In this document: piece by piece, positions 27,972 through 57,928 of the stretch
Position numbering within the stretch: the stretch's first letter is position 1
Layout: each line of letters starts with the position of its first letter
DNA from: Naegleria gruberi
Taxonomy: Eukaryota
Reading direction: 5' to 3' (one strand)
Assembly: GCA_000004985.1 (NCBI GenBank)
Contig: GG738894.1
Length of the DNA stretch: 64,000 nucleotides
Notes under the pieces: model-generated
What the model was told of the DNA's origin: nothing
The model's input: the letters and a program-made list of their open reading frames with translations, nothing else
The model's database searches: none
Translations under genes and position numbers: made by a program

Positions 27972-30900
27972 TTAATGCTTGTCACTGGATTTTACCGAAA
28001 GTACAGAAGGACGGGTTGAAGATTTGACAGAGAGTGGAGAGTTTCTGGTATTATTTACATTGTTTGAACTGTTTGTGACTGAGAGCTGTTGTTGGGATTG
28101 TTTGATAGGAGTTGTGTTGACCTGTCTTCCAGTTGTTGTTGATGAGCTTGAACCAGTTGCTGTTGTATTGGATGTGCTTGGAGTACTGGAATACTTTTGA
28201 GAGGTAGTCACAACTTTTCCACTATTAACATTTGTATTGACCTTATTCGTTGCTGTTGGTTGATTAGCAGTTGTAGAACTTGTTGTTGTGGACGTAAGCT
28301 TTGGAACTGTATTGGTTGCAGTTGATTTGTTGGCAGTCTGAGTTGTTGGTTTGACTTCGACTGGTGTGGAGGTAAGTTTTGGAACTGTATTGGTTGCAGT
28401 TGGTTTGTTGGCAGTCTGAGTTGTTGGTTTTACCTCCACTGGTAGTGGTAAAATTTCATTATCTTTCAGAACTGTCTTGGCAGAGGTTGAGGTGAGAATT
28501 TGAGGTTCTTCTCTATTACCACACAATCTATTCTTTCTGCATTTTCCTTTGGCATTGGCACTGATTTCGATACCCCTCTTCTCACTGGTGAAAAGTTTGT
28601 TGAGCATGACGAGAGGGTCCGCATCCGATCCAATATATACATTCGATCCGCTATTGCTAAAAACCTTATTATTTACAATATTTCCGAGTCCTTCCTTTCC
28701 AATCTTGATACCTTCAGCCATGCTATTGTGAATTTGATTATTTTCAATTGTTGGATTTCCACCATCCTTTATAAAAATGTTTGCTTCCAAACTTCCAAAA
28801 ATGTCATTATCAGCAATAGTGCCATGAGCACCTGAATGTATTTGAATTCCAACATGAGGAGAGTCACGAATAGTATTACCAGTAATGGTTGGATCTGCCT
28901 TTTCACAAATTTCCAAAGAAACTCCCTTAAAGGTACACTTTTCGATGGATGCATCACATTTTGATCCCTTCAATTTAACAGTACAATGTGGGAGTTTTCC
29001 AGTTGTTTTGGTATTTGGTTTGTACTCTGAATTGTAAACTATCAAATTTCTAATTTTCGAATATCTGACATTGTCAAAGAGAATGACATCCTCAACATCT
29101 TTTGGTTTGTAAAGAATGGCATGTGATTTTCCTTCCGAAATTCCCTTCAAAAAGACACTTCTGTCAATGAGAATTTGTTCCTTATAAACTCCAGGTCGAA
29201 TATTAATAATTGGTGTTGTGAGTGGTCTGGTTGGTTTGATGATTTTTCTTCCGTCTGATGGCCTCACAATGAAAGGCAAGTTGAATTTTTGCATTAAAAG
29301 TCTCTGCTTATCAACAAGTGAAATGTCAAGATTGGAGAGTGGATTACTCTTGACTGGATTGTTTGTTCCCAACATGACTCCTCCACTCGATCCACAATCT
29401 TCATACTCTCCAATATCTCCCAAATTACCAGTTCTAAAACTACTGGCCTTCTTTAGCGAGCCCGAGTCTGAGAAGGCATTCTTCATGGAACTGGCTGAAA
29501 AGGTTTTTGTCAATGAATGAGATGGTAGTGGCCTCTTTGGTATAATTTTCGTAATATCCATTGGAAGAGCATTGATAGCTGTTTGAATGGATGTATAGTC
29601 TCCCTTTCCATTAATATCTACTGTATATTCGAGTGAGTTTTGGAGAGGAATACTTCTCAATTCGGTCAATATTTGAGAGAAGGTTGGACGTTCGTCTGGA
29701 TCCTGTAAACAACAAGTCGAAACCAATCTAACAAAGCAATCAATAATTGGTGATTCTTGTGCCAATTTTTCAGCATTTTCAATCTTTGGTCTTTGTCCCA
29801 TAATTACCTGTGAAGCTACAGTGAATGGATTTTGAACATCGTGAAATGGAATTAAGTGAGTAATCAACTCGTACATGACCATTCCGAAACTGTAAACGTC
29901 AGCTTTTTCTCCTGAAGATGCTGCAGAACTGAACATTTCCTGTTTTTCAAGTTTCGAATATAATAAGTAAAGTAGTAATATTTGATAATAATTTGTTGCA
30001 TAATTTGAATAATAAATTGATATTAAAAGTCAATGCAAAAATACTTACTGGAGCCATCCATCCAGATGTACCTTTCATACCAGATACTCCTGAATTTCTA
30101 TTTCTCACAGAAGACAATCCAAAATCTGAAATTTTCGAAATCAAATTCTTATCCAACAACACGTTATGACTCTTCAAATCTCTGTGAATGATTGGTTTTG
30201 GTCTCGAGTGCAAATGATGCATTCCTTCGGCAATATCAATGGCAATTTGTAATTTCATTTCATTGCTGAGAATTGGTTGTGATTGGAGGAATTTCTTGTA
30301 CTTGTCTGCTTGTTCATCCTCATCATCCATTGGAGATTCGACAATGGTGAGTCCAGTTCCGAGAAGTTTCTTTGTGGTTGGTGTGATCACTTGTCTATTG
30401 TTTTGTTGATTTGAAGGAGGTTTTAATTTGCCATTCTGTGATGATTCATTGGTTGGTGAGAGTTGAGAAGAGTTTTGTTTCTTGGATTTCATCAGAGGTT
30501 CATAGTCATACTCTGGAAAGGTTGTTTCTAATACTTTATGAAGAGAGAAGGGCAGAAATTCCTATTTTTCAATATTACATTATATATTAATTATATATTA
30601 GAATATTAATATGATGTTGTGTGTTGTTGTTATTAATATTATTCCGAATGATGTTTTCCAATTAATTAAATTAAACATTATAATAACAATTAAATTGTTG
30701 GAAGAAGTTAAACACAAATATAATGGAGAGAAGAGTCATAAGAAGAAGAAGAAATTACACTTAGAAAAGAGAGAAATAATTAAACAACTCACCATAACAA
30801 TATAAACACACTGACTATCATCGGACCAACCAAAAACATTCAAAATATTGGAATGTTGTACTCGTAACATGATGGCAATTTCATTCAAAGTCTCCTTCCA

Positions 30901-33291: not shown

Positions 33292-33332
33292 GATTTATCC
33301 AACAATACACCAATAAATTCGGAAATTATGAG
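33292..33332 (+). repeat. 41-bp dispersed repeat B, copy 1
   Basis: atttatccaacaatacaccaataaattcggaaattatgagc is identical to 33845-33885. Confidence 0.8.
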
Positions 33333-33726
33333 CTTTATTCTACTACACGCACGTAATAGATTATTTTCAACACTGAACAACCACAAAACCAATTTCTACT
33401 AATCTATTACCCTTGAAATACTAGCAAACCGAATAATGGTTGACAAGATGAAAAACTTGAAAATTAATTTTCAAGAAAATCTTGCCTAATTGTAATAGAA
33501 TCAATTCCATTACAATTACCTCGTCCAATACTACAACCATTATTCAAACACCCACAGAGTCTTTGACACTCCAAAAAATCCCCTCACCAACCCTAGAACC
33601 CAATTCTATGTTGGCCTATTGAGCGCAGATTTTTAAGCACCACAAAGTCCTTGATAACACACCACTAATAAAATAACAATAAAGACGTATCAAAAGAATT
33701 AATATACTCACCGAGTGTTGGGGTGG

Positions 33727-33885
33727 GTGGTGGGGAATCAAAGTATTAAGCTTGCTCAATGTTGAAAATTTTTTAGACAAATTTTCCTATTTCTTGGTGT
33801 ATTGTTTACAATAAACTTTAGTGAGTTGAATACTCACTCCAATTTATCCAACAATACACCAATAAATTCGGAAATTATGAGCCCA
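33727..33885 (+). repeat. Composite repeat A (about 112 bp) followed by B (41 bp)
   Basis: gaatcaaagtattaagcttgctcaatgttgaaaattttttagacaaattttcctatttcttggtgtattgtttacaataaactttagtgagttgaatactcactccaa recurs almost identically at 34718-34828; it is followed here by the B unit. Confidence 0.8.
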
Positions 33886-34717
33886 TACTAGCAACCTAAT
33901 TCTTTTGATACGTGATTGGCTAAAACTTAATCACAAACTCAACTATCTAGATAAACCATACAAGCTAATTCTTCCATATAAATGGAGAATGTGCCTTAAA
34001 GGAGCCTGAATCAATGCATTAGCTTAAATCAAAACATCACCTCTCTGGAGAACATCAAGCCAATGATTACTAATCGTGATGAATAAATAGGTTTCGCTGT
34101 GAATGGATCATTAAGGGTATTCAATTTTGGAGGTCAACAGGAATATTAATAACATGTGGAAGTGGAGGTGTGTGTTCAAGATTATATGCTTGGCTGATAA
34201 TATTCTCAAATTTAAAACATCTAGCCCATAACCCATTATGTCCAATATATTCGGAAGGATTGATTGAAGCCCTGAATCCTTTGTTAGCAATCAAGTTACT
34301 GTTATTAGGTGAGATGGAGACTTGCTGGTTCATCAGTCTTAAGGTTCATGAATTTCATAAAAGACTAGAGAACCTAAGGTGGAAGTGATGAGTCGTCTCC
34401 ACTTATTCCGAAGTAAGTATTCTTGGGAAATAATCTTATCTACTTGCGTATGGTTGAACTCTATCCTTTAGCGTTCACTTTTGCAACCATCAAGAAAAAG
34501 GATACTTGTTGTTGTGTATCACCTTGACTATATGAGCTTTCCGAAGAAGAACAACCGTTTTGAAAGTGTTAATGTGTTCTGTTGACTTAACAATTATTAT
34601 AAACAGTGTCCGAATGTTGAAGATGAAGGAACCGGATGTCTGGTCGGAAGAGAATTGGTGCTAGGTTTATCGTGCTGTTTCTTGCTCTGGTTGAAAAAAA
34701 TTACTCTCCTTGAATCA

Positions 34718-34828
34718 AAGTATTAAGCTTGCTCAATGTTGAAAATTTTTTAGACAAATTTTCCTATTTCTTGGTGTATTGTTTACAATAAACTTTAGTG
34801 AGTTGAATACTCACTCCAAAGAACAAAA
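34718..34828 (+). repeat. Repeat A, copy 2, immediately upstream of ORF 34921-35703
   Basis: Near-identical to 33729-33841. Confidence 0.8.
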
Positions 34829-34920: not shown

Positions 34921-35703
34921 TTGAATGAAACAACTTCCACATCTCCTCGCTCGCCTATTGAAAACATCAGTCCCGATATAACAAACGATGCTCAGTACAA
35001 TGCTATTGTTAATGCTAAAGATCTAAGGGAAAGTATTAAAATATTAACTTTTACGATGATTGAGATGAAAACAGACGTGCAAAGAGATATGAAAAGTATG
35101 AAGAAAGATATTGCAGAAATCAAAGTGGAAATTACAGAAATCAAAAAAGATATGTATAGCTTGAATAGAAATGTGGGCTGCCTTTACGAAGGCCAAGTGA
35201 AAGCAGAATTTGAGAAGAATTTTCAAGTTGAGTCTCCAAAGATTTTAGAATATGACAAGTTTTCAACTAGATTTGCTGAAGTGTATTCCCAAAATGGTTA
35301 CCTTAATGAATTGGTGAAGAAATTGATAATAGGAAATGTTTTGAGCAAGGAAGAAAAAAGAAAGTTGACCTTGAAAACCTTCAAAGTTGAGCTTAATTTT
35401 GTTCTAACCGACAACTCAAACTCCACAAAAGTCCAAATCATTGAAGCAACCATGTCCTCATTCTCAAATCCTAACAAGTTAATATGTAAATTAGTACAAT
35501 TGGAACGTCAAGTATTGTTTTATAAAGCTTGTTACCCATCTCATACAGTCACTAAAATTGGATTAGTTTCACCATCCGATTTGGATTCAGATATGGTAAA
35601 GGATGCACTTGATAAATACCCAGGATTGGTAGTTGTTAAATCATTTTTAGATGAGGGTAATTTTGAAACTATTAGATTGGGTAATAAGCCAGAGATTTTT
35701 TAA
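34921..35703 (+). CDS. Hypothetical protein (260 aa; the frame stays open upstream to about 34835, inside repeat A)
   Basis: Charged, coiled-coil-like ORF (IAEIKVEITEIKKDMYSLNR). No domain recognised. Confidence 0.4.
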   Translation: MNETTSTSPRSPIENISPDITNDAQYNAIVNAKDLRESIKILTFTMIEMKTDVQRDMKSMKKDIAEIKVEITEIKKDMYSLNRNVGCLYEGQVKAEFEKNFQVESPKILEYDKFSTRFAEVYSQNGYLNELVKKLIIGNVLSKEEKRKLTLKTFKVELNFVLTDNSNSTKVQIIEATMSSFSNPNKLICKLVQLERQVLFYKACYPSHTVTKIGLVSPSDLDSDMVKDALDKYPGLVVVKSFLDEGNFETIRLGNKPEIF

Positions 35704-35804
35704 TTTGAAATCCCATGATGTCCAAAAACAAGTAGTTCACTCTGATTGTTTCGTATTGTTATATTTATCAAGTTAGAATTGAAATAAATCAACTCTTCAA
35801 ATTG

Positions 35805-35950
35805 GTATATGTGCAAATGATTGAGTAGGGTGGAATTATTCCCTCATTAACTTTTTAATATTTAAGTATTATTTGAAAAGCCATTAAAAAGGAATTGGAT
35901 TTGTGACAGTTATTAAGGAGTTGATCATTAATATTCAATTCCCAAAACAA
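35805..35950 (+). repeat. About 130-bp direct repeat R, copy 1 (3' flank of the USP-cyclase gene)
   Basis: tgagtagggtggaattattccctcattaac...cattaaaaaggaattggatttgtgacagttattaaggagttgatcattaatattcaattcc recurs at 42525-42650. The 55-bp core is identical and the rest is about 85% identical. Confidence 0.8.
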
Positions 35951-36008
35951 ATGAACTAGATTGGAAATATATGCAAACCAATAAATTTATTTGTAGTGAT
36001 AATTCATT

Positions 36009-39000
36009 TCAAATAATGGAGTTTATTTCTTCAGTCTTGACGATTGCTCCCACATGATACTTATTGTCCAATAAATAAGTCTGAAGAATTCCCTTTCCTT
36101 TTACTGCGATACTACGCTCCTCAAATGTGAATTCTAAATCAAAAACTCTTTCATATGTTTTTCTTGACAGTTGAATTCTTCCAGGTAAACTAGTGCTTTC
36201 CATCCTACTTGCTGTAGTTATGGAAAGAAAATAAGAAAATCATTAAATAATTATTACCACACTTCAAACTTACCTGTGTTGATATTGTCTCCCCAAAGAT
36301 CGTATGCAAACTTCTTCTTTCCAATCACTCCAGCTGTTACACTTCCTGTGTGTATACCTATTCTAATATTTATCTGTTTTTCAACAGGCTTTCTTGAAGT
36401 AATGTTGTAGTTACGAATAACATTGAAACAATCAATGGAAAATCTAAGAATTCTCTCTGGATGATTAATGTCAACATTGTTTAACCCTGCACAACAAAAG
36501 TAAGAATCACCAATGGTTTTGATTTTTTCCACATTATATTTGTCAGTCAAACCATCAAATCCATCAACCACACAATTCAGTAATTGCACTAACTCTGTAT
36601 GTGTTAATTGTGAGGTCAATGCAGTGAATTCAACCATATCACTAAAGAAACAGGTGACATCTGGGTGTTTCTCCGCAATAAGAGATGCTCCAGCCAAAAG
36701 TTGACGAGCTACAGAGCTAGGTAGAATATTAAGAAGCATATTTTCCGATTTCTTCTTTTCTTCGTTTAGTAATAAAATTGCCTTCTTCTCTAAGGTGGAT
36801 TCTTTGATGAAAAATAATGTAATGTGTTTGTTTTCAAAGAATGTTACATAGATATTGACTGTTGCAGGGAAAGTCTTTTGATTTTTTCTGACACACTCAA
36901 GTTCAAAAGTTTCTCCTTTAGGGCAGGTTTTTGTTACTTGTTTTTTGATGGATTCGACTTCGTTCTTAACCAAAGTTTGGTGTTCTCTTGTGAATATTTT
37001 AATAGGTTTACCAATAACATCTTCGAGTTGATAACCAAACATTCTTTGAGCTGAAGGATTGAAAATATCCACTAGCATTGTATCATTACATGTAATTACA
37101 CCATCAACAAATGTGTTAAGAATTGTCACTAGTTTTGCATCTCGCTCTGACGTGACACCATTGTTGGTAAATAATTTGGATGGGTTTTCATTAGGTAGTG
37201 TTTTAAATAATGCAAAGTTTTTAAGTTTCTCGTTGAACACCAAAGTATCTATCGATAGGTAATCGAACATGATTCTCATTTGTTGTTCTGCATTAGCATA
37301 TTCACGGAAAATGTAATACATCGAACAAATCGAGCAAGTGACAAGTACAAAGCCAATTACAAAACTCGCTATCACATAATTAATATTTGGTACAGAGGCA
37401 TCAACAGCGAAAATATTTGCAAAATCAATCAATTTCATCGATGACAAGTTAAAAAGAAATAAAATCTTAAGTAAGGAAGTAATATGTTCCTTGATAGTCA
37501 CTGGTTGAAATAAAATTGTCTGGGCCAATAAATTTTGTTTCAACAATATTTGTGTTGATAATAATATATGTGTTAGCATTGTATCTATTCCAATGCCACA
37601 AGTGCTGTTAAAATGAGTGTCAGTTTCTGGAATGGTACAATTTGGATCGCCCTTAATCAAGTGGTCTGTACCGGGAAACATGCCTGCAACTACTGATTCA
37701 AAGGGTTTTGTAGTTGATCCGAATAAACACCAATCCCAATTCCTTTGAAGATTTGCTGCCTCTTGATAATATTGAAGAGTCATATTTAAAGCTTCATCCT
37801 CTGTTATCAATGGTATATCGTCAACATTTCTATAATAAGCATATAGTTCAGTACTGTAAAATGCTACATTTTGCAGATGCTTGGTAGTTTCAAATACGTC
37901 TTGTACATTTACAAAGGATTCAACCGAATAATGGGTATTGTCAAACAAGCCACATACGAATACTGCCGTACACACTCCAACTGTTAAAAATATTACTATT
38001 ATCAAAATGGGGAAACATATCTTATGTTTGAGAGGATCTACTTTTCCTGCATGAGTAATCACTTCTTGTGGTTGTTGTTCGCATAATGTGTGGTATATTT
38101 CACCAACTTCTGGTTTAGAGACACACTCTTTCAGTAGCTTGACATGATTTTTCAATCTAGAGAAAGTGAATCTTGAATATATCAAATATAATACACACAC
38201 TATTAACAAGCAAGGTAACACGGCTGCTGTGTAAATGATTAAAACATTCCTCGAATTCAATGCCTCATCTATATGAACTTGTGTGTAAGAATGACAAAAT
38301 AAAGAATATGCCTGTGTAAGGGTATTTTGATTTCTATAAAGAAACATGAACATAAAGGATGTGTAGGTTTGTAGTAAAGCTTCACTTGTTTCTGACAAGA
38401 AGCGATTTGCCAATAGTTTTAAAATCTTATTGATTTGAGAGAGTGGGTACTTGTTTGACTCAGTCAGGTTATATAAACCTCCTCCTGGTATTACAGTTGG
38501 AATTACTAATGAATAGTGGAAATCAGTAAATTGAGAGTAGATTTGAGGTGAAAACTTTGAGGCAAAAGCAACGTTTTCTAAATTGACTATCGATTGTGTG
38601 AAATATTCGACATGCTGTTTGTATTTATCCATGTCAAAATAAATATCATTCGTCCAATTATGTTCGATGGTGATATTTGATTGCATCCAGTGGTCAATAA
38701 TCTGATACCCTCTTCCTGAAAGTAATAAGTTAGTGACACAGGGTATTGTGGCACATGCCTCCTTAGAATGTAGCAAATTGCTTGTTGCTTGATTGGAATA
38801 AATCAGTGACAGCAAGAATGGAGTGATGAGAGCAACCAAGAACAGTATGCAAAAGCCAACAAATAGTATGATAAAAACAGTTCGGCGTGTTGGAGTTGCA
38901 AGAGCATTGCTATAAATCATCTTTCTTGTTTGTGGATCCAGTGTTTCAAATTCTTCTAACGTTTGCTCCTCATTTTCTCTCCCATCAGTGGTAATTTCAG

Positions 39001-42000
39001 ACACAGAAGATTCACCTTCAGCTTTTTTAGTGGATCTGTTGCATTCATTTTCTTCGAGTAAGTTTGCTTTGTTAAAATTCTCATTTGATAATTCTGGATT
39101 TGCTTTAAATGATACCAAATATTGTGCATATATTCTTAGTGCTGTTTTGTCTTGACTATAAAAAGGAACAAGGTTGTTAAATATACAGTCACACTCGGCA
39201 ACTAGCTTGGAGCTTCTAAAAATGACTCTTTCAATTTTTTCCATAATAATACTTTCTTTCAGAAACTCTTTCCAAAAATCCTTATGAAGAGCATAAAGTT
39301 CTTCGGTTTTTCTCCGAATTTTAGACAGTATTAATACCAGTTCTGACTTGGAATCATCTTCACAAAGATACGCCTCAATTTCCTTCTTCTTTTGGCACAA
39401 TGAATACGAAGAAACAAAATTTGCATACTTTGGTGTCATATTTTTTGTTAAAATTGAAAAAGCCAATGTACGTTCACCCTTCGTTTGATATGCCATTATT
39501 GATGCTGATACTAAGGGCAACCTCATACTGCTGTTTAAATCTTGTAAGGTTGCCTTGATAAATGCTATTATCCCTGAATGATACTTGCTTCGTTTAGGTC
39601 CTTTCATCATTTCAAACTTTAAAAAAAGACCCAATAGGTAAACAATTCTATCATCTTGGAGATTTAAGTTTTTTGAGACTGTATATGTTCCAGTGTCTGG
39701 TTCTTCTTTAAAAAACTTGTTCTTAAATTTATACATATTGTATCTTGTATAACATTCCATTGTCACACATCCAATTAAAGCCATCAATAGCATCAACCCC
39801 AGAGTAGCTGAAAACAATATTATTCCAAGAGTGTTATCGTTGGTCACATTGACAAAATATGTCACAAGACCAGATACACTTGTGGCCAGTCTACAGAAAA
39901 TGATACCACTAATAACAGTATTTTCAAATCTTCTTAGCATTGGTATTGTTTGAAAAACAAGTATTATCAATAGTAGAGTCGAAATTATGTGTACAATAGA
40001 TCTTAAATATGCCGTGTACGGAGGAATTAGATGATGAATGACAATCCCAACAACATTGCACAACGGAATAGTGGCCTGAAAGATAATATTGTCATTTAGC
40101 ATTGGGGAGTTGCTTAATGGATGAGAATTTGGTAGAATCAATATTGATAGACCAAGTACAATTATAAAAACAACTATTGAAAGCAATGATAATATCATCA
40201 GAGGAATGTTGATAGAATCGAAACAAGGGGAACCTGGGAATCGATTCAACACCATTCCATTAGGTGCCCGACTAAATGGAATAACTACAGCAAGTGGTTC
40301 AGGTTGCGTCAAGCCATAACTGCAGTCTACAAAGGAAGTTAACACGTATGTGACAGGTGCCGAGATCAATAAACAAGTGTAACATAGAATATGTACCACT
40401 TTTTTCAGGAGCTTCCTCCTGCTACTTACTCTTTTCACAGCAGTATTAGCCAAAATAAAACAGCACACAATTGCCACAATAGTGATCATAAAAAATACAG
40501 CAAGACCAAGGTTAGCATAATATGGAAATGTCCATGATGCAAGAGTTATTGGAAAGTTCAAAACTTTGATGATCCAACTAGCCCATACTCCAAATCTGAA
40601 AGACACTGGATTTAGTAACGGTATCCATACAAAACACCAAAACAATACAAGCTGTACGATGAGTTGCTTAAGAAACTCAATGGTTCCTTTTCTAATTTTG
40701 TTTGCCTGCATTGCAAACAAGAAGATAAAAAACTCATTCGCTATGGCAGACCCAAACTCTGATGATAGAGTAGAGCTCTGGCAAGTAATAGATGTAGAAA
40801 ATCCGTTTTGTTTTTTTTCATCCTTGTTTGTGTCCTTAGTTTTGTTTGGTTTCTCAATACTGATGGCTCCATTATGCTGAAGTCTTATATAGCCTTGCAT
40901 TTCGATTTCAAACTTTGCATTGTCTAATTCAACTTCTTGTCTCAAATCATTTGGTATGAGATTATTATCCACATTGTTAATATTCAACTTTGGGTCTCTT
41001 CTGCTGTACATGAGCATGTAAGCATTTGTGGAATCGCCAATAATCTCATCATTTCCATACATGGATTCTATTTGAGATTTATCAATTTCATCAATATAAT
41101 TATCATTAAATTTAAACCATTTCCCTGAATGGAACGATCTTATTAACACAAAGTAATGCTTTAAAAAAGGTCACTAAAAAGCTAGCTATTTTACATACCC
41201 CTGTAAGTGCATCTCCAGAATGAATGATAACACTATAAAGATCAAATAAATGTTGCTGATCATCTACATATTTTGACATGTCCAACACAAAGGGAAAGGT
41301 AACTTTGTTTCCAAGCTAATACTACAATTACATTAATATGAACAAGTTCATACTTACCTTGACAGGAGTATTTGTTTGATAATCAACCCTCTTGAGTTGA
41401 AGTGTTAAAATGTAGGGAAGATGAGCCAATTTTAAATTCTTGACCGCATCTATTTTCTTATTTCCAAGCTCCTCACAACACCATTGATTATCTCCCTTCA
41501 TTTCCTCAGATTTTAAAAAACTTTCAATGGCCTCCTCGACACTGGACACATCCCGAATAGCCAATTGCAAATCCATAAAACTGTCCACTTTGGTGGTTTG
41601 ATATACTTCACCACTTTGTTTCTTCTCATCCACAGACTCGATATGATCTATTACAGTGCCACAAAACAGGTCGCTGAAGGATACATTGCTATCGTTATTG
41701 TAATTTTTTTGTGGTGGTGATGAATCAGTTTCTTTAGAATGGGATCCGTCAGTCAGCACGTCGAACAAGATCCTAAACACTTCATGAATATCGTGTTGAA
41801 CTTTTAAATCTGATGCTTGCCAGCCTAAGCATAGAAAAATTTTCGCACACGAATCAATCATATTATGTGTTGATAATGAAATCTAAGGACAATCGAAAAC
41901 TTACCAAATGAATTTGTTAACTGTGTGGTGTCCACTGAGTTTCTCTTTGATAAAGTCAAATAGGCAAACAAGCGTTGCAATTGATAAGGGACGCAATGGT

Positions 42001-42211
42001 CCTGGTCAGGATCATGCTCAGGATCGTACCTCCATTTGAAAACCAACTCACGAAATTTTGGTGTGTGATGCAGAGATTGTAGTAGAGAATTTAAATAACA
42101 TGTGGTTCCATTATTGGTGAGGCCAACAAAATGCTCTTCCTCTTGTGCACTACAAGATTGACGCCAGTTGGTGTTGGATGGTCCACTTGATGTTTCGTGG
42201 TTGTACTGCAT
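36009..42211 (-). CDS. USP-type deubiquitinase domain fused to a multi-TM module, an extracellular loop domain, PAS and a class III adenylyl/guanylyl cyclase domain (receptor-type cyclase A); five exons
   Basis: Exon 1 (42211-41905) gives ...GLTNNGTTCYLNSLLQSLHHTPKFRE (USP Cys box). Exon 2 (41824-41358) gives GWQASDLKVQHDIHEVFRILFDVL...NQWCCEELGNKKIDAVKNLKLAHLPYILTLQLKRVDY. Exon 3 (41315-41200) gives LGNKVTFPFVLDMSKYVDDQQHLFDLYSVIIHSGDALTG. Exon 4 (41160-36275) gives HYFVLIRSFHSGKWFKFNDNYIDE (USP His box), then with no intervening stop about 12 TM helices, a roughly 430-aa loop between two TM helices, PAS (VTILNTFVDGVITCNDTMLVDIFNPSAQRMFGYQLEDVIGKPI) and cyclase (FFSDMVEFTALTS...KIKTIGDSYFCCAGL...IRIGIHTGSVTAGVIGKKKFAYDLWGDNINT). 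Exon 5 (36211-36009) gives ASRMESTSLPGRIQLSRKTYERVFDLEF...*. Introns are 39-83 nt, with GTAAGT/GTATGT donors. Confidence 0.8.
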
Positions 42212-42524
42212 GGTGATGTAAATTGTACTTTGTTTAAGTGGCGTTCCTCCTATTTTAATTGAAATTGAGACTTTAGTGTGACAAATTTATTATCTAATCT
42301 ATTTTGGTAAAATTGTAAAAATAGTAATTAGACTTCCGTAAAAAGTTGCGTCTTTTTGAAGGTACAAAATACTTTCACGGTAAACACTGCTTGGAACACA
42401 AAATCTGAGCAACACTCAAACTGTTTTCAAACAATTCTTCCAAGGTAAACTGCAAACAAACCAACTGCCGCTTAGTGCAAACTCTTAAATTGATTAAATC
42501 TCTGGTTCCAAAAACCAAATGTTT

Positions 42525-42650
42525 TCCATTGAGTAGGGTGGAAATCATTCCCTCGTTTAATTGTTAATTATTTGAAAGGGCATTAAAAAGGAATTGGATT
42601 TGTGACAGTTATTAAGGAGTTGATCATTAATATTAAATTCCAAAAAAAAT
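42525..42650 (+). repeat. Direct repeat R, copy 2 (immediately 5' of the ATG at 42649)
   Basis: See 35805-35950. Confidence 0.8.
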
Positions 42651-43558
42651 GAAACGACAACAAACCTGCGCTAATCCAGAAGAAAAAAGCGAAAAACGCT
42701 CCAAACACAACGATCAAGCGAAAATTGTAACCTTGCAGATGGATGAGGCTTTGGCGGGAAAAAATTCTAGCCTCTTATTCAGTAAGAAGACGAAGAATAT
42801 TGAAATGACAATTCATTTGAACGGAATGGAGTGTCATGAAGGGATACTTTCCACCATATTTGATTTTCTGGATGTGAAAGATTTGCAATTTATTAAATCA
42901 GTATCATGGAAATGTTATGAATTGGTGCTTGCTGATAATTCAAGATATGCACAGAGAATGAGGGAGGAGTTTCCAATATATTGTAAAAGATTGGAGTATT
43001 TGAATGAGTTTGCTGAAGGTTTGATGATAAAGTGGCTGAAGAGGAGATTTGTGAAAAGACATGGCGAGAGATTATTATGGTAGATTGTGGAGAAATCAAA
43101 CGGGAATCATGAGAAGGTTGTTGAAATTATTGTGAATTATGGATTGTTTGATCTTATTGAAATATTATCTGATGAGTTTCTAAATGCTAGACTTGCATTA
43201 TATGAATGTGGAAAGAAGATAGATGAGTTTGAAAGTCTCTTTGAAGGTAAGCTATTTAATTGTGTTTGCCATCCCTAAAATGTGTACAGATGATTATGGC
43301 CTGTTTGCAATAAGTGAAATCATTTCACAGGGGGAGGAGTTCTATAAAAAGGTTATTGCTAAACCTGAGCTTGGTAAATCAGCACTTCGATACGGATATG
43401 AGGAATACATGTATTGTTTCCATTCTCTCTATTACATTCCAACTCAAAACTATATTGCAGAAAACGAAATTCAGTACGAAAGAAGAAAACAAAAAACCAT
43501 CAAAGCACTTATTGAAGGGTATGATGTTTTTAAGAATTTCAATCCTATCTATTGTTAG
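42649..43558 (+). CDS. Hypothetical F-box-like protein (ECHEGILSTIFDFLDVKDLQFIKSVSWKCYELV); an in-frame TAG at 43081-43083 and one intron
   Basis: ORF 42649-43083 and ORF 43087-43278 lie in the same frame, separated only by TAG. A 43-nt intron (GTAAGC at about 43249, ...TGTACAG at about 43291) then joins ...SLFEG to DDYGLFAISE...NFNPIYC*. Confidence 0.45.
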
Positions 43559-43973
43559 GTGGTTTCCAATAACAGGTTGTTTCTTTAATATTATTCCATT
43601 GTACAACAACTTGATTTCCAAGAGTTTAACCAAAAAGAACAAAACCTCAACAACAAATTCCTAAAATACTCATTAAGAAATGTTTCATCATCTTTGATGG
43701 TTGCAAACTTTCTGTAGTCTGAAACCAATCAATTAAAGGATTTTTATTAGAATTGAAACAATTACAAGTGAGAGGAAAGTATCGAATGAGGATTTTAGAT
43801 ATTCTCCAGAAAGAATCTAAAAAACGGAGCAAGACAATCCGTTCCAGACTATTTTTACAATCGGAACGGAAAAGTATCTCGGAGACGGAGTCATTTTTCA
43901 CTTCAATTAAACAGTGGACAACCAACACAATCACTTGCCGTATACACACTGGTTTCCCTCTTTCAACCTATAA

Positions 43974-52527: not shown

Positions 52528-55500
52528 ATGCAAGCCTCATCTAGTGGACAATTTGAATCCGATGGAGAGGGTTCTGATTTTTTGACAAATAACAATAATA
52601 TTAATGGTGGAGGTGGAGGAACCAATGGTGCTCCCTTAGCAAATCCACAACAAGCAATGAGTAATGTCGGAACGAGTAGTGTTGGTTCGACAGTTTCAAC
52701 TAATACCGATTCTAATCTTTCAAAGAATGTTGTGTCCATGTTTAGAGATCAATTCATTGGATTTATGATATCATTCAATGCAAAAGTATCGAGAATTTCC
52801 AAGCTAAAGTATGGTATCCTTAATATTTTGATATATGTGTACTTGTGGTACGTTACAATGGTACTCTCCTCTTGTCCTTCAAGAATTGATGAAGAAACAT
52901 CTGCATCTGCATCATCATCTTCAACAACATCTTCCTCACATCACTACTTGTGGGGAGAAATACCAGGTTGGATTCATAGAGCCTTATTCTATCCCATAAA
53001 TTTTGGCGTAGAACATTACCCTTACGAGCTAACATTGACAATATCTGCGCTATATCTGCTTGCTGAGGTTATTTGCATTGGACTCTTAGTTCTCTTTCAA
53101 GTGGCCAAGAATAAGGGAAGCAAATGGAGTGAAAAGATTAATTCAATTGCTTCCAAACTGATACTTTTCCTTATTGTGACTTCACATTTTGCATTGTGGA
53201 TTCATACAGTACCTATGGCACCACTCGAATCAATACCACTAGGACACGGTTCATCAACAATAACGAGTAGTTCATCATCATCAAAAACATCTTCTTCAGC
53301 AGAGGAGGACACTTATCTTTACTATTATCCTTCTCTTTCAATTAGTTCAACAGTGAATATTATTTTCATAGTGATTGGTGCACTTGGTGTGGTTTGCAAT
53401 GTTGGAGTGACACTGTTGGGATTCATTCTCACTGCAGAAACTGTTCCACCAATGAAGAAATATTCCTTATTTTCAATTGATAGAGTGGAGCCAACAGCTG
53501 TTCTTCTTTTCACAAATCAATTGAGTGTAATTGTTACTGTTATTGTAACTTCTCATTTGGCAGTCGTGTCGAGTGCATTCAAGATTGTAATCTCTGGAAT
53601 ATGCTTGATTTTCTTCATGAACAAAATACCCCACTACAGAAAGTGGGAGAATTCTTTAATGGTGGGAGTAATGTTTGGAAAGACTTTGGGAAGTATTGGA
53701 CCTCTTGTTTCTGATCTAATAGTCTCGGGCGAAACAAATGCAACTACTCTTGGAGGAGCACTAACTGGTGTCACTATTGGATTGCAAGTAATTGGATTCA
53801 TTATAGGATTCATTGGATTTTACATTTATCTAAGCATGATAACTAGGTCTGTTCGTAAATTCTTATTATCAGAATTTGAGGATAAGAAGAAGGATAAAAT
53901 AGGAGCACAACAAGCATTTGCCTATTTTGAAGAGAATAAGAATATGAAGAAGCTGTCACTCTATATCAAATTATCAATGGGAGAAAATGGTTCTGCAAAC
54001 TTTAATGTGGCCACTCGATTTGTGAGGAATATTGGTGTTTCCAGAAGTATGACCAATGTGGATTTCCTCATTACAGCAGCCATATTCTCTGCATTCCATC
54101 CGGATGTAGATGACCAATTTACATGCATTGCCAATGCCATTCATTTACTTCAGAGAGCTCAAAAACAACATCCATCACTCTCGTTCAAGTACATGATCAT
54201 GTTAAGGCATAAGGAAATTGAGGAGAATATGAATACCATATCTGCTATTAATATTGAATTGAGACAAATGTTACAGACATTGGATAAGAAACAACACTTG
54301 TTACAATATTTCCATAGAGAATTTTACAAGGAACTTTTGAATGAACATCCTTCATTGTCCAAGATGGAAAATATCAATAGAACTATATCCATTATAGTTC
54401 AGGATTGTGATCTCAAGTTTAGAAATTTACTAGTCTCCCATCCTAATGATAAAACCCTATTGAGATCGTACGCCTGTTACTTGGAAACTTGTAGGTGGGA
54501 GAAGGAGCTAGCAGCTGAATACTATGATGATGCCAATCAAATTGAGGAAGAAGAGGCAAGAAAACACCATCATAAGAAGGCAAAGAATAACTTTATGAGT
54601 AGTGACTTTTCAAAGAGAAGAGCCATTCCAACAGCATCAAACAAAGTCGTACCAATATCCAATATGGCTGCTAATTTCGATCGTAAAATTAATGCCTCAC
54701 TGGATTTTGATGTTGTGGAGAAATCGTTAGATCATAAACATGATGAAGAAAATTGGGAATCAGTATCAAATGCAGAGGAGTTATCTAAGAAGGAAGACTT
54801 GTTCAGAATTGCAATCAACACTGAGGATGACCATACTTTTACCAAAATTTGGTTTTCCATATTCACCATGTTCTCTATCATTGTCATTTCTGTAATTATT
54901 GGTTTTGGAATGGGCCAGCTCAAGATTACAACAGACAGAGTTTCACTGCAAGAGAAGGTTTGCTCACTGAGTGGAATTCCTTACCTCATTGTTTCACAAT
55001 TAAGATCAGTGCAGTCCATCTATAGATTCTCTTCCTCTTCGTGGGAGCAAACTCTCAAGGTACCACTGGTTGCAAATATAGCAAAGAATCAATTAAGCAT
55101 GTTGATGGAGAAGGTACAACATGTCAAAGATGCCTCAAACAATGGTGAATTTGTTCCCGAAGTTGTTGAAATGTACAATGAAGTTCGTTGGACGAATATC
55201 ATTCCTATTAAACAACAAACAGAGGAAACAAGCATTCCATTGTACCATAAAGTGAACGGATCGATTGCAGAGTTTGTCGAATCCATGTTGACACAAGCTC
55301 ATGAACTTGAGAAACAGTTTGATAATTTACATGTATTGAATGTTACCATGTCAAATTATAACTTTTTATACTAGTAAGTTTTATATCCTTCATTGAATTC
55401 TCTATAACGTGAAATAGTTATTTGGGAAGAACTGAAATGACAGAAGCTTTTGACTATTTTTGTTCTACCTTCATCAAGAGTTCAGAAAGCACAGAAATAG

Positions 55501-57928
55501 AAGGTCAAAAAGAGTTTTACATTCTCTGTGGTGTTTTGATGGGTACCTATGCTCTACTTGCTTTGATTTATGTAATTGTTTTGAGAACTCAGCTTTTACA
55601 AACATTGAGAATTATTAGATGTATATTCAAGAAGATTCCAAAAGAAGAAAGTGGCAAAATTTTTCATCGTTTTGATAAGAAACTCTATGATGAAATACAT
55701 AAGGAAAATAGAACAGTGTTGACACCTAAGAATCTCTTCCTTGTCACTACCATTTTGATTATTTTGATAACATTCCTTGTGTGTATATTGATCATTATTG
55801 ATTTCGAACAGGGATCACAAGAAATTATGTCCACAATGGTGACAGTCTCATCGCTAAATGATGTTATTACCATTTCTTCAAAGGTTACCTTTACGTTGAA
55901 TGAGTTAATCACAAAAAGTATAATCATGAATGAAAACTGGATTGATTTGAGAGATAGAAACTTGGAAGATTTGAAACAAGCTGCCATAGCATGGAGAGAC
56001 ATTACCATTGGTGGCAGTGAAAATAATTTCAAGCCAACAGTGTTTGGTATTTTACCTGAAATTGATGACTTGTTGGATGGAACCTGCAGCAATAAGACAT
56101 TCCAGGTGTCTGAACCTCTCAATTACACAACAGTCATGTCAGAATTGAGTTGCAGAGGAATGGATCAATTGTTGAATATATTTATGGATAGATCCTATGA
56201 ATTGAGTCAAGATTTTTATTCTAATTACTATGATAAGGAAAGTGCTATGGAGTTGTACTTTACTTACATTTATTTCCTCTCTGTAACTTTCTCAGACAAG
56301 TTATTGGACTTGATAAGTGTGTATGTGAATTTCGCAAAGCATCCAGAAGTTGCCTTAGCAGCGGCATCGACTTCTGTTGGTTTGATATTAATTATCATGT
56401 TGAGCTACTTTGCCTATTCAAATATTTCATCCTATTGGATGGAAAAGCAAAATTTAAGAAGTTTGTTAAATTATATTAATTGGGAATTGATTGAACAAAT
56501 AGACGATTTGAAGCAGTATGCAGTTTCACATAGAATTAAGGAAAATACCTATCAAAGTTTGGAAAAGGTTTCTAGCAAAATTTCCAAGTTCAATGTTTTC
56601 AAATTTGAAGATGGTGACGATGAAGAATCCAACGATCCATTGGCCATGACCAAATCTATTCTATTGGCTGCAGCTGATGGCAGTATCGTTTGTAGTTCAA
56701 ATGGCTCTATTACAATTTTTAATCCAGCAGCTGAAGACATGTTTGGTTTGAAAGGAAGCGAAGTCATGGGAACACACATCACTGATCTATTCTCCATTCA
56801 AGATCAACCTAAAATTGCAAATTTGCTCAAATCCATGAATAGTTCACTAAGTGCCTTCTCTGAAACATTCGAAGCAACAGCTATCCGAAAGAACAAGACA
56901 ATCTTCTCTGTGAAACTCTCAATGAGTGTTTGTATCTTTATGAAGAAGGCCATTGTTTCATGTTTCGTCAAGGATATTACCCCAGAGAAGAAACAAAATG
57001 CTCTCATTGCTGAAGAAAAGAAGAAGAGTGAAGATTTATTATTGAATATTTTACCACTTCCAGTCGCAAATCGATTAAAACAAGGTGAAACATTCATTGC
57101 TGAAAAGTTTACAGATGTCACTGTATTCTTTTCTGATATGGTTGGATTTACCAAAATGTCATCAGGAATGGAACCAGATCAATTGGTTAAAATGTTGAAT
57201 ACCATCGTTAATGAATTTGACAAGCTGACAGAAAAGTATTCCATTGACAAGATTAAAACTATTGGAGACGCCTATTTTAGTGTAGGTGGTTTGCATGCTT
57301 CCAAATCAAGTGATCACCCAGAAAGAATGTTAAGAGTAAGTTGTAATAAGTTTACAAAAAAACGCAATATTCACACAAAACATAGTTCTCAATTGATATC
57401 TTTTTCTTTTTGAACAAATTCAACACAGAGACCAACAACAAGATTAACCTAAGAGTTGGCCTTCATACTGGTGGTTGTGTGGGTGGTGTAATTGGCAGTA
57501 AAAAGTTTGCCTATGATTTGTGGGGTGATACCATTAATACTGCCTCGAGAATGGAATCTACATCCATTGCTGGAAGAATTCAATTATCCAGATCTACCTA
57601 TGAGGTAAGTTTCTTTCTAAAAAGATTACAAGATTATTTCTAATACTATTTTCACCTCAATGTTTAGAGAGTTTTTGATTTGGATTTCCAATTTGAAGAA
57701 AGAGATGGAATTGAAGTAAAAGGAAAAGGATTAATGAAAACCTATCTAGTCCATCAAAAACACCATCCAATTGCTTTTGAAGAAGAACACGAAATGACTC
57801 CAATTATTATTGAACCACAAACTTGTCATCCTCCATTATTGGAATCAAACAACATGTCAACACCACTTCTTGAGGAACATTTGGAAAACAATGATGAAAC
57901 CCTAGAGTATACCATTGTCCAACACTAA
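52528..57928 (+). CDS. Receptor-type class III adenylyl/guanylyl cyclase B (multi-TM, extracellular loop, PAS, cyclase), paralog of cyclase A but lacking the USP domain; four exons
   Basis: Exons are 52528-55373, 55418-57335, 57386-57604 and 57668-57928, with introns of 44, 50 and 63 nt (all GTAAGT...AG). PAS is ILLAAADGSIVCSSNGSITIFNPAAEDMFGLKGSEVMGTHI. Cyclase is FFSDMVGFTKMSS...KIKTIGDAYFSVGGL...HPERMLR|FSIDIFFFLNKFNTETNNKINLRVGLHTGGCVGGVIGSKKFAYDLWGDTINTASRMESTS...STYE|RVFDLDFQFEERDGIEVKGKGLMKTYL. The exon 2/3 junction was set by alignment to cyclase A (ERILRFSIDCFNVIRNYNITSRK...INIRIGIHTG). Confidence 0.8.

What the first reader, a model, noticed from the sequence alone, without database searches (positions are those of the whole stretch)
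35805..42650. About 130-bp direct repeats flank the segment holding only the USP-cyclase gene
Copy 1 (35805-35950) lies 60 bp beyond the 3' end of the USP-cyclase gene. Copy 2 (42525-42650) abuts the ATG of the next plus-strand gene. The copies are in the same orientation, 55 bp are identical and the rest is about 85% identical. The 6.6 kb between them contains just this one gene. That pattern is what unequal recombination or insertion of a gene-sized segment into a pre-existing promoter/5'-leader would leave. It may mark how the USP-cyclase locus arose.
Basis: seen in the sequence. Interest (0 to 1): 0.5.

Follow-up and report, generated by a model that had tools for sequence, protein, structure and literature searches.

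The report
Duplicated gene leader flanking USP-cyclase gene
A ~130-bp stretch that forms the promoter-side leader of a small unannotated gene in the amoeba Naegleria gruberi has a second, orphan copy 6.7 kb away, so the two copies bracket one large signalling gene; it is a real but ordinary-looking relic of an old local DNA rearrangement.

Summary
Window 35820-35955 and 42528-42653 are direct repeats: 137 alignment columns, about 85% identical, a 54-nt perfect block, blastn E=5e-39. There is no third copy in the 64 kb.

The window is Naegleria gruberi NEG-M. "USP" here means a ubiquitin-specific protease (UCH) domain fused to TPR_TmcB-PAS-cyclase in one five-exon minus-strand gene (42211-36009). 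GenBank splits this gene into two models.

- **Copy 2:** it is the promoter-proximal leader, including the ATG, of an unannotated F-box-like gene.
- **Copy 1:** it is an orphan (ATG-AAC-TAG) lying between the poly(A) signals of two convergent genes.

An independent metagenome contig from a relative (97.9% identical) carries the gene and both copies. The repeat is therefore not an assembly artefact and predates that split. In the relative, copy 2 has lost 98 bp and keeps only the TATA-like motif, the A-rich leader and the ATG.

I found no transposon hallmarks and no RNA family or structure signal.

The best reading is an old, decaying rearrangement footprint. It fits insertion of the one-gene segment into the leader, but no empty site was found and genome-wide copy number could not be tested. 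Interest is low to moderate.

The parts
35820..35955 (+). Repeat copy 1 (orphan copy). It lies in the 305-bp spacer between the stop of NAEGRDRAFT_51902 (35703) and the stop of the USP-cyclase gene (36009). It ends in ATG AAC TAG.
   Evidence: limits and identity; stop codons and dead ORF; 112/115 identical in relative L003
42528..42653 (+). Repeat copy 2: the promoter-proximal region, A-rich leader and start codon (42649-42651) of the F-box-like ORF.
   Evidence: start context
35882..35935 (+). 54-nt block identical in both copies (copy 1 coordinates; partner at 42581-42634). It contains the TATA-like TATTAAGG at 35911-35918 and 42610-42617.
42507..42605 (+). 98-99 bp present in NEG-M but absent from relative L003. 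It comprises 21 bp of flank plus the 5' 78 bp of copy 2. Read as a deletion in the relative, with CA microhomology at the junction.
36009..42211 (-). USP(UCH)-TPR_TmcB-PAS-guanylate/adenylate cyclase gene, 1992-aa model. Exons: 42211-41905, 41824-41358, 41315-41199, 41158-36274, 36211-36009. It is the only gene between the copies.
   Evidence: The GenBank models D2VSH2 and D2VSH1 match its N- and C-terminal parts.
42649..43083 (+). First ORF of an unannotated F-box-like gene (F-box 19.2 bits, below the Pfam cut-off of 20.5). It stays open in L003 with two in-frame 3-nt indels.
34921..35703 (+). Last-exon ORF of NAEGRDRAFT_51902 (D2VSH0), the plus-strand gene upstream of copy 1. Its AATAAA lies at 35783-35788, 32 nt before copy 1.
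   Evidence: sequence
35986..35991 (-). AATAAA on the minus strand, 17 nt after the cyclase stop. The cyclase mRNA therefore probably ends just before copy 1 (inference).
   Evidence: sequence; frames

Best explanation
The two units are paralogous copies of one promoter-proximal/5'-leader segment of an F-box-like gene in Naegleria gruberi. The segment comprises a TATA-like TATTAAGG, about 30 nt of sequence, an A-rich leader and the ATG. Copy 2 is the working copy. Copy 1 is a non-coding orphan left in the spacer between two convergent genes. The pair is the footprint of one old local rearrangement. The most economical version is that the 6.57-kb segment 35956-42527 (the USP-cyclase gene with its own 316-bp upstream and 53-bp downstream flanks) was inserted just after the start codon of the F-box-like gene. 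Repair of staggered or resected ends would then have duplicated about 130 bp of target on both sides. Since then the copies have drifted apart (about 6% substitutions plus 4 indels), and in a sister lineage copy 2 lost its 5' 78 bp. Shown: the repeat, its limits, its promoter/leader context, its age relative to the strain split, and the absence of mobile-element or RNA hallmarks. Inferred: the insertion event, its direction, and the inactivity of copy 1.
For: The repeat is real and sharply bounded. Copy 2 ends in CCAAAAAAAATG, and the same A-run precedes about 10 other gene starts in the window; CAAAAAAA is enriched upstream of genes (7 of 18 occurrences, P about 1e-6). TATTAAGG lies 39 nt before the ATG, and 4 of its 5 other occurrences in the window lie within 200 nt upstream of gene starts in sense. 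Copy 1 starts 32 nt after the AATAAA of the upstream plus-strand gene and ends in ATG-AAC-TAG. Removing 35956-42653 would leave a normal tandem spacer of about 250 bp. The interval holds exactly one gene. Composition is uniform, so there is no sign of foreign DNA. Contig L003 has both copies. Diagnostic sites (CCC versus CC, AAAACAAATG versus AAAAAAAATG) group copy 1 with copy 1 and copy 2 with copy 2 across strains, so the duplication predates the split and was not recently homogenised. The F-box-like ORF behaves as coding: two in-frame indels and an F-box stretch identical at the amino-acid level. In L003 the deletion keeps exactly TATTAAGG to ATG, so the 5' part of the unit is dispensable. 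The extent of the unit therefore reflects how it was duplicated, not a functional module.
Against: No empty-site allele or species was found. The flanking genes have no detectable homologues outside N. gruberi, and the Naegleria cyclase homologue loci are not syntenic. A 126-136-bp target duplication is far longer than those of known transposases or retroelement integrases. The gene has introns, so it is not a retrocopy. No donor or near-identical paralogue of the gene was seen; the nearest window paralogue is 22-27% identical and the nearest N. gruberi hit is 34%, but one search was demonstrably incomplete. Genome-wide copy number of the unit is unknown. The coincidence of the 3' limit of the unit with the ATG is unexplained under a random-break model.
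Confidence: 0.4

Rival explanations
1. Copy-and-paste of the leader alone. About 130 bp of the F-box-like gene's leader was copied into a break in the next intergenic spacer 6.7 kb away, by templated insertion, template switching or ectopic repair synthesis. On this view the USP-cyclase gene was already in place and is flanked only incidentally.
For: Only the unit is duplicated; nothing else is. Other short dispersed duplications lie just upstream: perfect 108-nt (33735-33842 = 34712-34819) and 41-nt (33293-33333 = 33842-33882) direct repeats, 0.5-1 kb apart. All three non-tandem repeat families of the 64-kb window fall within 33.3-42.7 kb. Without copy 1 the convergent spacer would be 169 bp, still plausible.
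Against: It needs the pasted copy to land, in the same orientation, just after a poly(A) signal where a promoter would normally sit. It also needs the copied segment to end within 5 nt of the ATG. No mechanism-specific junction signature was seen.
Confidence: 0.25
2. The unit belongs to a dispersed repeat family of the N. gruberi genome, either a small non-autonomous element or a promoter module shared by a gene family. Two members happen to flank this gene.
For: The limits are sharp. The divergence between copies (about 6% plus indels) exceeds the between-strain divergence. The unit carries its own TATA-like motif, leader and ATG. Genome-wide copy number is untested.
Against: There are only two copies in 64 kb. 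There are no terminal inverted repeats and no matching target duplications around either copy. No tRNA-like or Rfam signal was found. Exact-word scans of metagenome, prokaryote and viral collections gave no match, although those collections hardly sample this genome. The positions are orthologous in L003.
Confidence: 0.2
3. Both copies are active. Copy 1 is a live orphan promoter that fires into the 3' end of the USP-cyclase gene and makes an antisense RNA under the same control as the F-box-like gene. This concerns function and is compatible with either origin above.
For: The TATA-like motif, leader and ATG are intact in copy 1. The 54-nt perfect block is longer than expected under even divergence (P=0.013). 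Copy 1 is 112/115 identical in L003.
Against: Copy 1 is no better conserved between strains (2.6% different) than introns (2/162) or the 3' UTR (1/53), and one of its three changes falls inside the perfect block. No ORF follows it. No fold signal was found.
Confidence: 0.1
4. Chance similarity of AT-rich DNA, or an assembly artefact.
For: The genome has 34% G+C.
Against: E=5e-39 and no such match in shuffles. An independent short-read metagenome assembly reproduces both copies.
Confidence: 0.01

Closest known systems
Target-site duplications flanking inserted DNA (transposons, retroelements)
   Same: Two direct copies of pre-existing target sequence bracket a discrete inserted segment, and homology ends abruptly at both edges.
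   Different: Known target duplications are about 2-20 bp, or tens of bp for some LINEs; here they are 126-136 bp. The bracketed DNA is an ordinary intron-containing host gene with no transposase, reverse transcriptase, terminal repeats or poly(A) tail.
Long flanking duplications from repair of staggered or resected breaks, and replication template switching (FoSTeS/MMBIR-type rearrangements)
   Same: These can yield insertions flanked by duplications of tens to hundreds of bp, and nearby short copied segments such as the perfect 41- and 108-nt repeats at 33.3-34.8 kb.
   Different: This is a resemblance only. No junction microhomology or templated filler could be demonstrated for the main repeat. 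The mechanism has not been described in Naegleria to my knowledge.
LTR pair of a retrotransposon, or solo LTRs
   Same: Two direct repeats of similar size flank about 6.6 kb. Copy 1 can be read as TG...CA.
   Different: The internal region encodes UCH-TPR-PAS-cyclase on the opposite strand with introns, and no gag, RT or IN. Copy 2 lacks the CA end. There are no 4-6-bp flanking duplications and no primer-binding site or polypurine tract next to the repeats.
Low-copy repeats as substrates of non-allelic homologous recombination
   Same: Direct repeats flanking a gene could mediate its deletion or tandem duplication.
   Different: The 54 nt of perfect identity is very short for efficient homologous recombination. 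This describes a possible consequence, not an origin.

Membership tests
LTR retrotransposon (LTR pair) | Internal region encodes gag/pol (RT, integrase) in the orientation of the LTRs | tested here: not met
   Pfam finds only UCH, TPR_TmcB, PAS and Guanylate_cyc, on the opposite strand and interrupted by introns.
LTR retrotransposon (LTR pair) | TG...CA termini, 4-6-bp target duplication, primer-binding site and polypurine tract abutting the LTRs | tested here: not met
   By inspection, copy 2 ends AAAAAAAATG (no CA). The flanks GCAAATGA/CTAGAT and TTTTCC/ACGACA do not match. The DNA before copy 2 is not purine-rich.
TIR DNA transposon / MITE | Terminal inverted repeats at the ends of the unit | tested here: not met
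   No inverted pair joins the two ends of either copy, even at seed 6 and length 8.
TIR DNA transposon / MITE | Many dispersed copies in the genome | not testable with these tools
   There are two copies in 64 kb. Exact-word scans of other collections returned nothing.
SINE / tRNA-derived element or small structured RNA gene | tRNA-like or known RNA-family match, or a fold more stable than shuffles | tested here: not met
   ARAGORN found 0 genes. No Rfam hit overlaps copy 1 even at E<=10. Fold z-scores are -0.67, +0.97, -0.81 and -0.04.
Transposase- or integrase-type target-site duplication | Short fixed-length duplication (about 2-20 bp) flanking an element with defined ends | tested here: not met
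   The duplication is 126-136 bp, and the bracketed DNA has no element ends.
Core promoter / 5' leader of a protein-coding gene | Lies directly upstream of, and runs into, a start codon in the start context typical of the genome | tested here: met
   Met for copy 2. AAAAAAAATG is shared with about 10 other starts, and CAAAAAAA is enriched upstream of genes. The ORF is conserved in L003. Copy 1 has the context but no ORF.
Core promoter / 5' leader of a protein-coding gene | Mapped transcription start or promoter activity | not testable with these tools
   No transcript data are available. The position of the TATTAAGG motif is only suggestive.

The most novel reading that the evidence does not exclude
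The ~130-bp flanking duplication, together with the perfect 41-nt and 108-nt duplications 2 kb upstream, is the signature of an undescribed way in which Naegleria relocates whole host genes or DNA blocks, leaving very long target duplications. In addition, the orphan copy 1 remains an active promoter that makes an antisense RNA over the 3' end of the USP-cyclase gene, co-regulated with the F-box-like gene.
Probability: 0.08. Interest if true: 0.55.

Novelty: new member of a known kind. Interest (0 to 1): 0.25.

Why it matters
If the insertion reading is right, this would be a dated, sequence-level footprint of how a lineage-specific signalling gene came to its present place in a free-living amoeba whose cyclase family is greatly expanded. 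That gene is a ubiquitin-protease/cyclase fusion. It would also hint at a repair route that leaves unusually long target duplications. In practice the value is modest. The useful by-products are annotation corrections: two GenBank models should be one USP-cyclase gene, and an F-box-like gene is missing. There is also a natural deletion that narrows the F-box-like gene's essential promoter to about 45 bp.

Tried and rejected
- **RNA gene:** the Rfam E-value scan and folding of both strands of both copies gave nothing.
- **tRNA/SINE:** ARAGORN found none.
- **Coding exon:** the plus strand has stops in all frames. One minus-strand frame is open for about 35-43 codons in both copies, but it has no start and lies beyond the cyclase stop, so I rejected it.
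- **Relic of an F-box paralogue after copy 1:** there is no DNA or translated similarity beyond the unit.
- **Recent local duplication of the cyclase gene:** the second TPR_TmcB-PAS-cyclase gene at 52528-57413 is only 22-27% identical and lacks UCH.
- **Synteny in N. lovaniensis and N. fowleri:** the loci of the best homologues share no neighbours with the window. An adjacent F-box-like gene in N. fowleri is unrelated.
- **Copies of the unit elsewhere:** exact-word scans returned nothing in metagenome (2 scans), prokaryote and viral collections.
- **More contigs from relatives across the gene-A/copy-1 junction:** four exact-protein look-ups failed.
- **Homologues of the flanking genes:** gene A matches only itself, and the F-box-like ORF matches nothing.
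- **USP-cyclase fusions elsewhere:** five long UCH homologues have no cyclase domain.
- **Caveat:** it missed the 100% identical GenBank cyclase model and the L003 ORF, so absences in that search are weak evidence.
Full report

Yes. Reading the two regions and aligning them gives a direct repeat at 35820-35955 and 42528-42653. The alignment has 137 columns, about 85% identical, with 8 mismatches and 4 indels. blastn against the whole window gives E=5e-39 and no third copy.

The ungapped 83-nt core is 94% identical. A 50-nt exact block occurs only at these two places at up to 3 mismatches, with none in 100 shuffles. The longest perfect run is 54 nt (35882-35935 = 42581-42634). With the 12 differences placed at random, a run that long occurs with P=0.013, so divergence is concentrated in the 5' half.

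Homology stops abruptly. The 120 nt downstream of the two copies are unrelated (P=0.98) and the upstream flanks are only marginally similar (P=0.04). The true gap to the stop codon is 53 nt.

**2. Where are we?**

The window is Naegleria gruberi NEG-M, on a 499,907-bp scaffold. Eight window ORFs or spliced models match GenBank/UniProt proteins exactly: D2VSG0, G1, G5, H0, H3, H4, H6, H8 and I1.

"USP" here is a ubiquitin-specific protease (Pfam UCH), not a universal stress protein. The gene runs on the minus strand from the ATG at 42211 to the stop at 36011-36009 in five exons. The introns are 80, 42, 40 and 62 nt.

GenBank splits it into two models:
- D2VSH2 / NAEGRDRAFT_71940 (324 aa). Its last 27 residues are out of frame and it lacks the UCH His box.
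- D2VSH1 (1122 aa), which starts at an internal Met.

Both agree with my exons where they overlap. In my model the His-box motif GHYFVLIRSFHSGKWFKFND...AYMLMYSRR lies in the same uninterrupted 4.9-kb exon as the TPR_TmcB, PAS and cyclase domains. One 1992-aa USP-cyclase protein is therefore the better model. The interval between the repeats holds just this gene.

**3. Context of each copy**

*Copy 2.* It ends in CCAAAAAAAATGAA, and the ATG (42649) opens a 144-codon ORF with a weak F-box match (19.2 bits, cut-off 20.5). The ORF is not annotated. The only plus-strand GenBank gene between EFC40119 and EFC40121 is the cathepsin EFC40120, and the ORF has no detectable homologue.

It nevertheless looks like a real gene for two reasons:
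- About ten other gene starts in the window carry the same A-run before the ATG, and CAAAAAAA is strongly enriched upstream of genes.
- The ORF is preserved in a relative (section 4).

A TATA-like TATTAAGG sits 39 nt before the ATG. Four of its five other occurrences in the window lie within 200 nt upstream of gene starts, in sense.

*Copy 1.* It has the same motif, leader and ATG, but the ATG is followed by AAC TAG. It occupies 136 of the 305 bp between two convergent stop codons. It starts 32 nt after the AATAAA of NAEGRDRAFT_51902 (35783-35788) and ends 31 nt short of the minus-strand AATAAA of the cyclase gene (35991-35986). It is thus an orphan leader, placed where the promoter of a next plus-strand gene would sit.

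**4. Evidence from elsewhere**

A full HMMER scan with the UCH exon-2 ORF found an identical 177-aa ORF. The look-up returned a 7010-bp ENA metagenome contig, L003 (ERZ929261 / ERR1078381). L003 is collinear with window 35841-42903 at 97.9% identity.

Identity by region:

| Region | Identity to window |
|---|---|
| Exons | 98.1-99.1% |
| Introns | 160/162 |
| 3' UTR | 52/53 |
| Copy 1 (covered part) | 112/115 |
| USP-cyclase 5' spacer | 82.5% (many indels) |
| First 250 nt of the F-box-like ORF | 95.3% |

Four conclusions follow.

- **(a) Not an artefact.** Both repeat positions and the gene exist in an independent assembly, so the repeat is real and there is no presence/absence polymorphism at this distance.
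- **(b) Old duplication.** Diagnostic sites (CCC versus CC, AAAACAAATG versus AAAAAAAATG) group copy 1 with copy 1 and copy 2 with copy 2 across strains. The duplication therefore predates the split, and that part was not recently homogenised. The copies differ by about 6% plus indels, against 1-4% for non-coding DNA between strains, so the event is several times older than the split (inference).
- **(c) Deletion in the relative.** L003 lacks window 42507-42605 (98-99 bp) and keeps only CAGTTATTAAGGAGTTGATCATTAA---TAAATTCCAAAAAAAATG. The missing part of copy 2 in NEG-M is only about 80% like copy 1, so it is old. The simplest reading is a deletion in the relative, with CA microhomology at the junction.
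- **(d) The ORF survives.** The F-box-like ORF stays open over the 87 codons covered. It has two 3-nt in-frame indels, three amino-acid changes in the N-terminal tail, and an unchanged F-box stretch with two synonymous changes.

From (c) and (d), the 5' 78 nt of the unit appear dispensable and the essential promoter is probably within the last 45 nt. The 130-bp extent of the repeat then reflects how it was duplicated, not a functional module.

Copy 1 is no better conserved between strains than introns, and one of its three changes lies inside the perfect block. There is thus no sign of purifying selection on it, although the counts are small.

**5. What it is not**

- No tRNA or tmRNA gene.
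- No Rfam match over the unit even at E<=10.
- No fold better than shuffles on either strand.
- No terminal inverted repeats, no matching short duplications around either copy, and no gag/pol-type content between the copies.
- No compositional anomaly.
- No translated or DNA similarity beyond the unit.

**6. What could not be tested**

Exact-word scans of metagenome, prokaryote and viral collections gave nothing. The flanking genes are orphans. The loci of the closest cyclase homologues in N. lovaniensis and N. fowleri are not syntenic and those proteins lack UCH.

**7. Mechanism**

I favour a single old rearrangement (confidence 0.4). In this reading the 6.57-kb one-gene segment 35956-42527 was inserted just after the start codon of the F-box-like gene, and about 130 bp of target was duplicated by repair of staggered or resected ends. 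This explains four things:
- the orientation of the copies;
- the promoter-like position of copy 1 after a poly(A) signal;
- its ATG followed by a stop;
- an insert that is one complete gene with its own flanks.

The weaknesses are the unusually long target duplication, the lack of a donor or an empty site, and the unexplained coincidence of the repeat's edge with the ATG.

The rivals are:
- **Copy-and-paste of the 130 bp alone (0.25).** It gains plausibility from the perfect 108-nt and 41-nt dispersed duplications at 33293-34819, arranged [D5-X-D2][D5-Y-D2]. These show that short local copying has occurred in this neighbourhood.
- **A dispersed family (0.2).**
- **Copy 1 still active as an antisense promoter (0.1).** This is a functional add-on, compatible with either origin.
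- **Chance or artefact.** Excluded.

**8. Novelty and verdict**

This is a locus-specific, as far as can be seen, low-copy direct repeat of promoter/leader DNA. It is an ordinary kind of rearrangement relic, with an unusually long flanking duplication. It is not a member of any transposon, LTR or RNA family tested. Interest is low to moderate (0.25). The more useful outcomes are the corrected USP-cyclase gene model, the missing F-box-like gene, and the natural promoter deletion in a close relative.

Noticed in passing
window 36009-42211 (-): GenBank/JGI annotate this as two genes: D2VSH2/NAEGRDRAFT_71940 (a 324-aa UCH whose tail is out of frame and which lacks the His box) and D2VSH1 (a 1122-aa PAS guanylate cyclase starting at an internal Met). 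One 4.9-kb exon runs from the UCH His box through TPR_TmcB, PAS and cyclase, giving a single 1992-aa USP-cyclase protein. The same structure is open in L003. None of five long UCH homologues checked has a cyclase domain.
   Followed up: partly
window 42649-43083 (+), continuing to about 43600: An F-box-like gene that is not annotated in GenBank and has no detectable homologue. Its ORF is kept open in the relative L003 with two in-frame 3-nt indels. Downstream exons with GTAAG/GTATG...AG introns are visible at about 43247-43289 and 43520-43559.
   Followed up: partly
window 33293-34819: Perfect direct repeats: 108 nt (33735-33842 = 34712-34819) and 41 nt (33293-33333 = 33842-33882). They are arranged as two adjacent units with identical ends and unrelated interiors (401 and 829 nt). 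All of this lies inside the 1.6-kb 'intron' of the GenBank model of NAEGRDRAFT_51902. It could be recent templated duplication, an element with conserved ends, or a haplotype mis-join.
   Followed up: partly
window 52528-57413 (+): A second TPR_TmcB-PAS-cyclase gene without a UCH domain, 22-27% identical to the USP-cyclase. The two family members lie 10 kb apart in opposite orientation.
   Followed up: partly
window 42212-42506 versus L003: The spacer upstream of the USP-cyclase ATG is by far the most indel-rich part of the strain comparison (82.5% identity with 48 gap columns), while the introns are almost unchanged.
   Followed up: no
window 28284-28439: Two tandem 78-nt units, 91% identical, inside the coding region of the kinase/beta-helix gene (ORF 27972-29936, minus strand).
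   Followed up: no
window, gene starts (e.g. 1157, 6923, 18993, 47025, 58003): Many genes start with AAAAAAAATG. TATTAAGG occurs mostly within 200 nt upstream of gene starts in sense (1010, 5634, 27537, 52460), which makes it a candidate TATA-like promoter element in N. gruberi.
   Followed up: partly
(tool behaviour): The word-indexed protein search with the 1631-aa exon missed both the 100% identical GenBank model D2VSH1 and the 98.7% identical L003 ORF. Both are in the collection. Negative results from that tool should be treated cautiously.
   Followed up: yes
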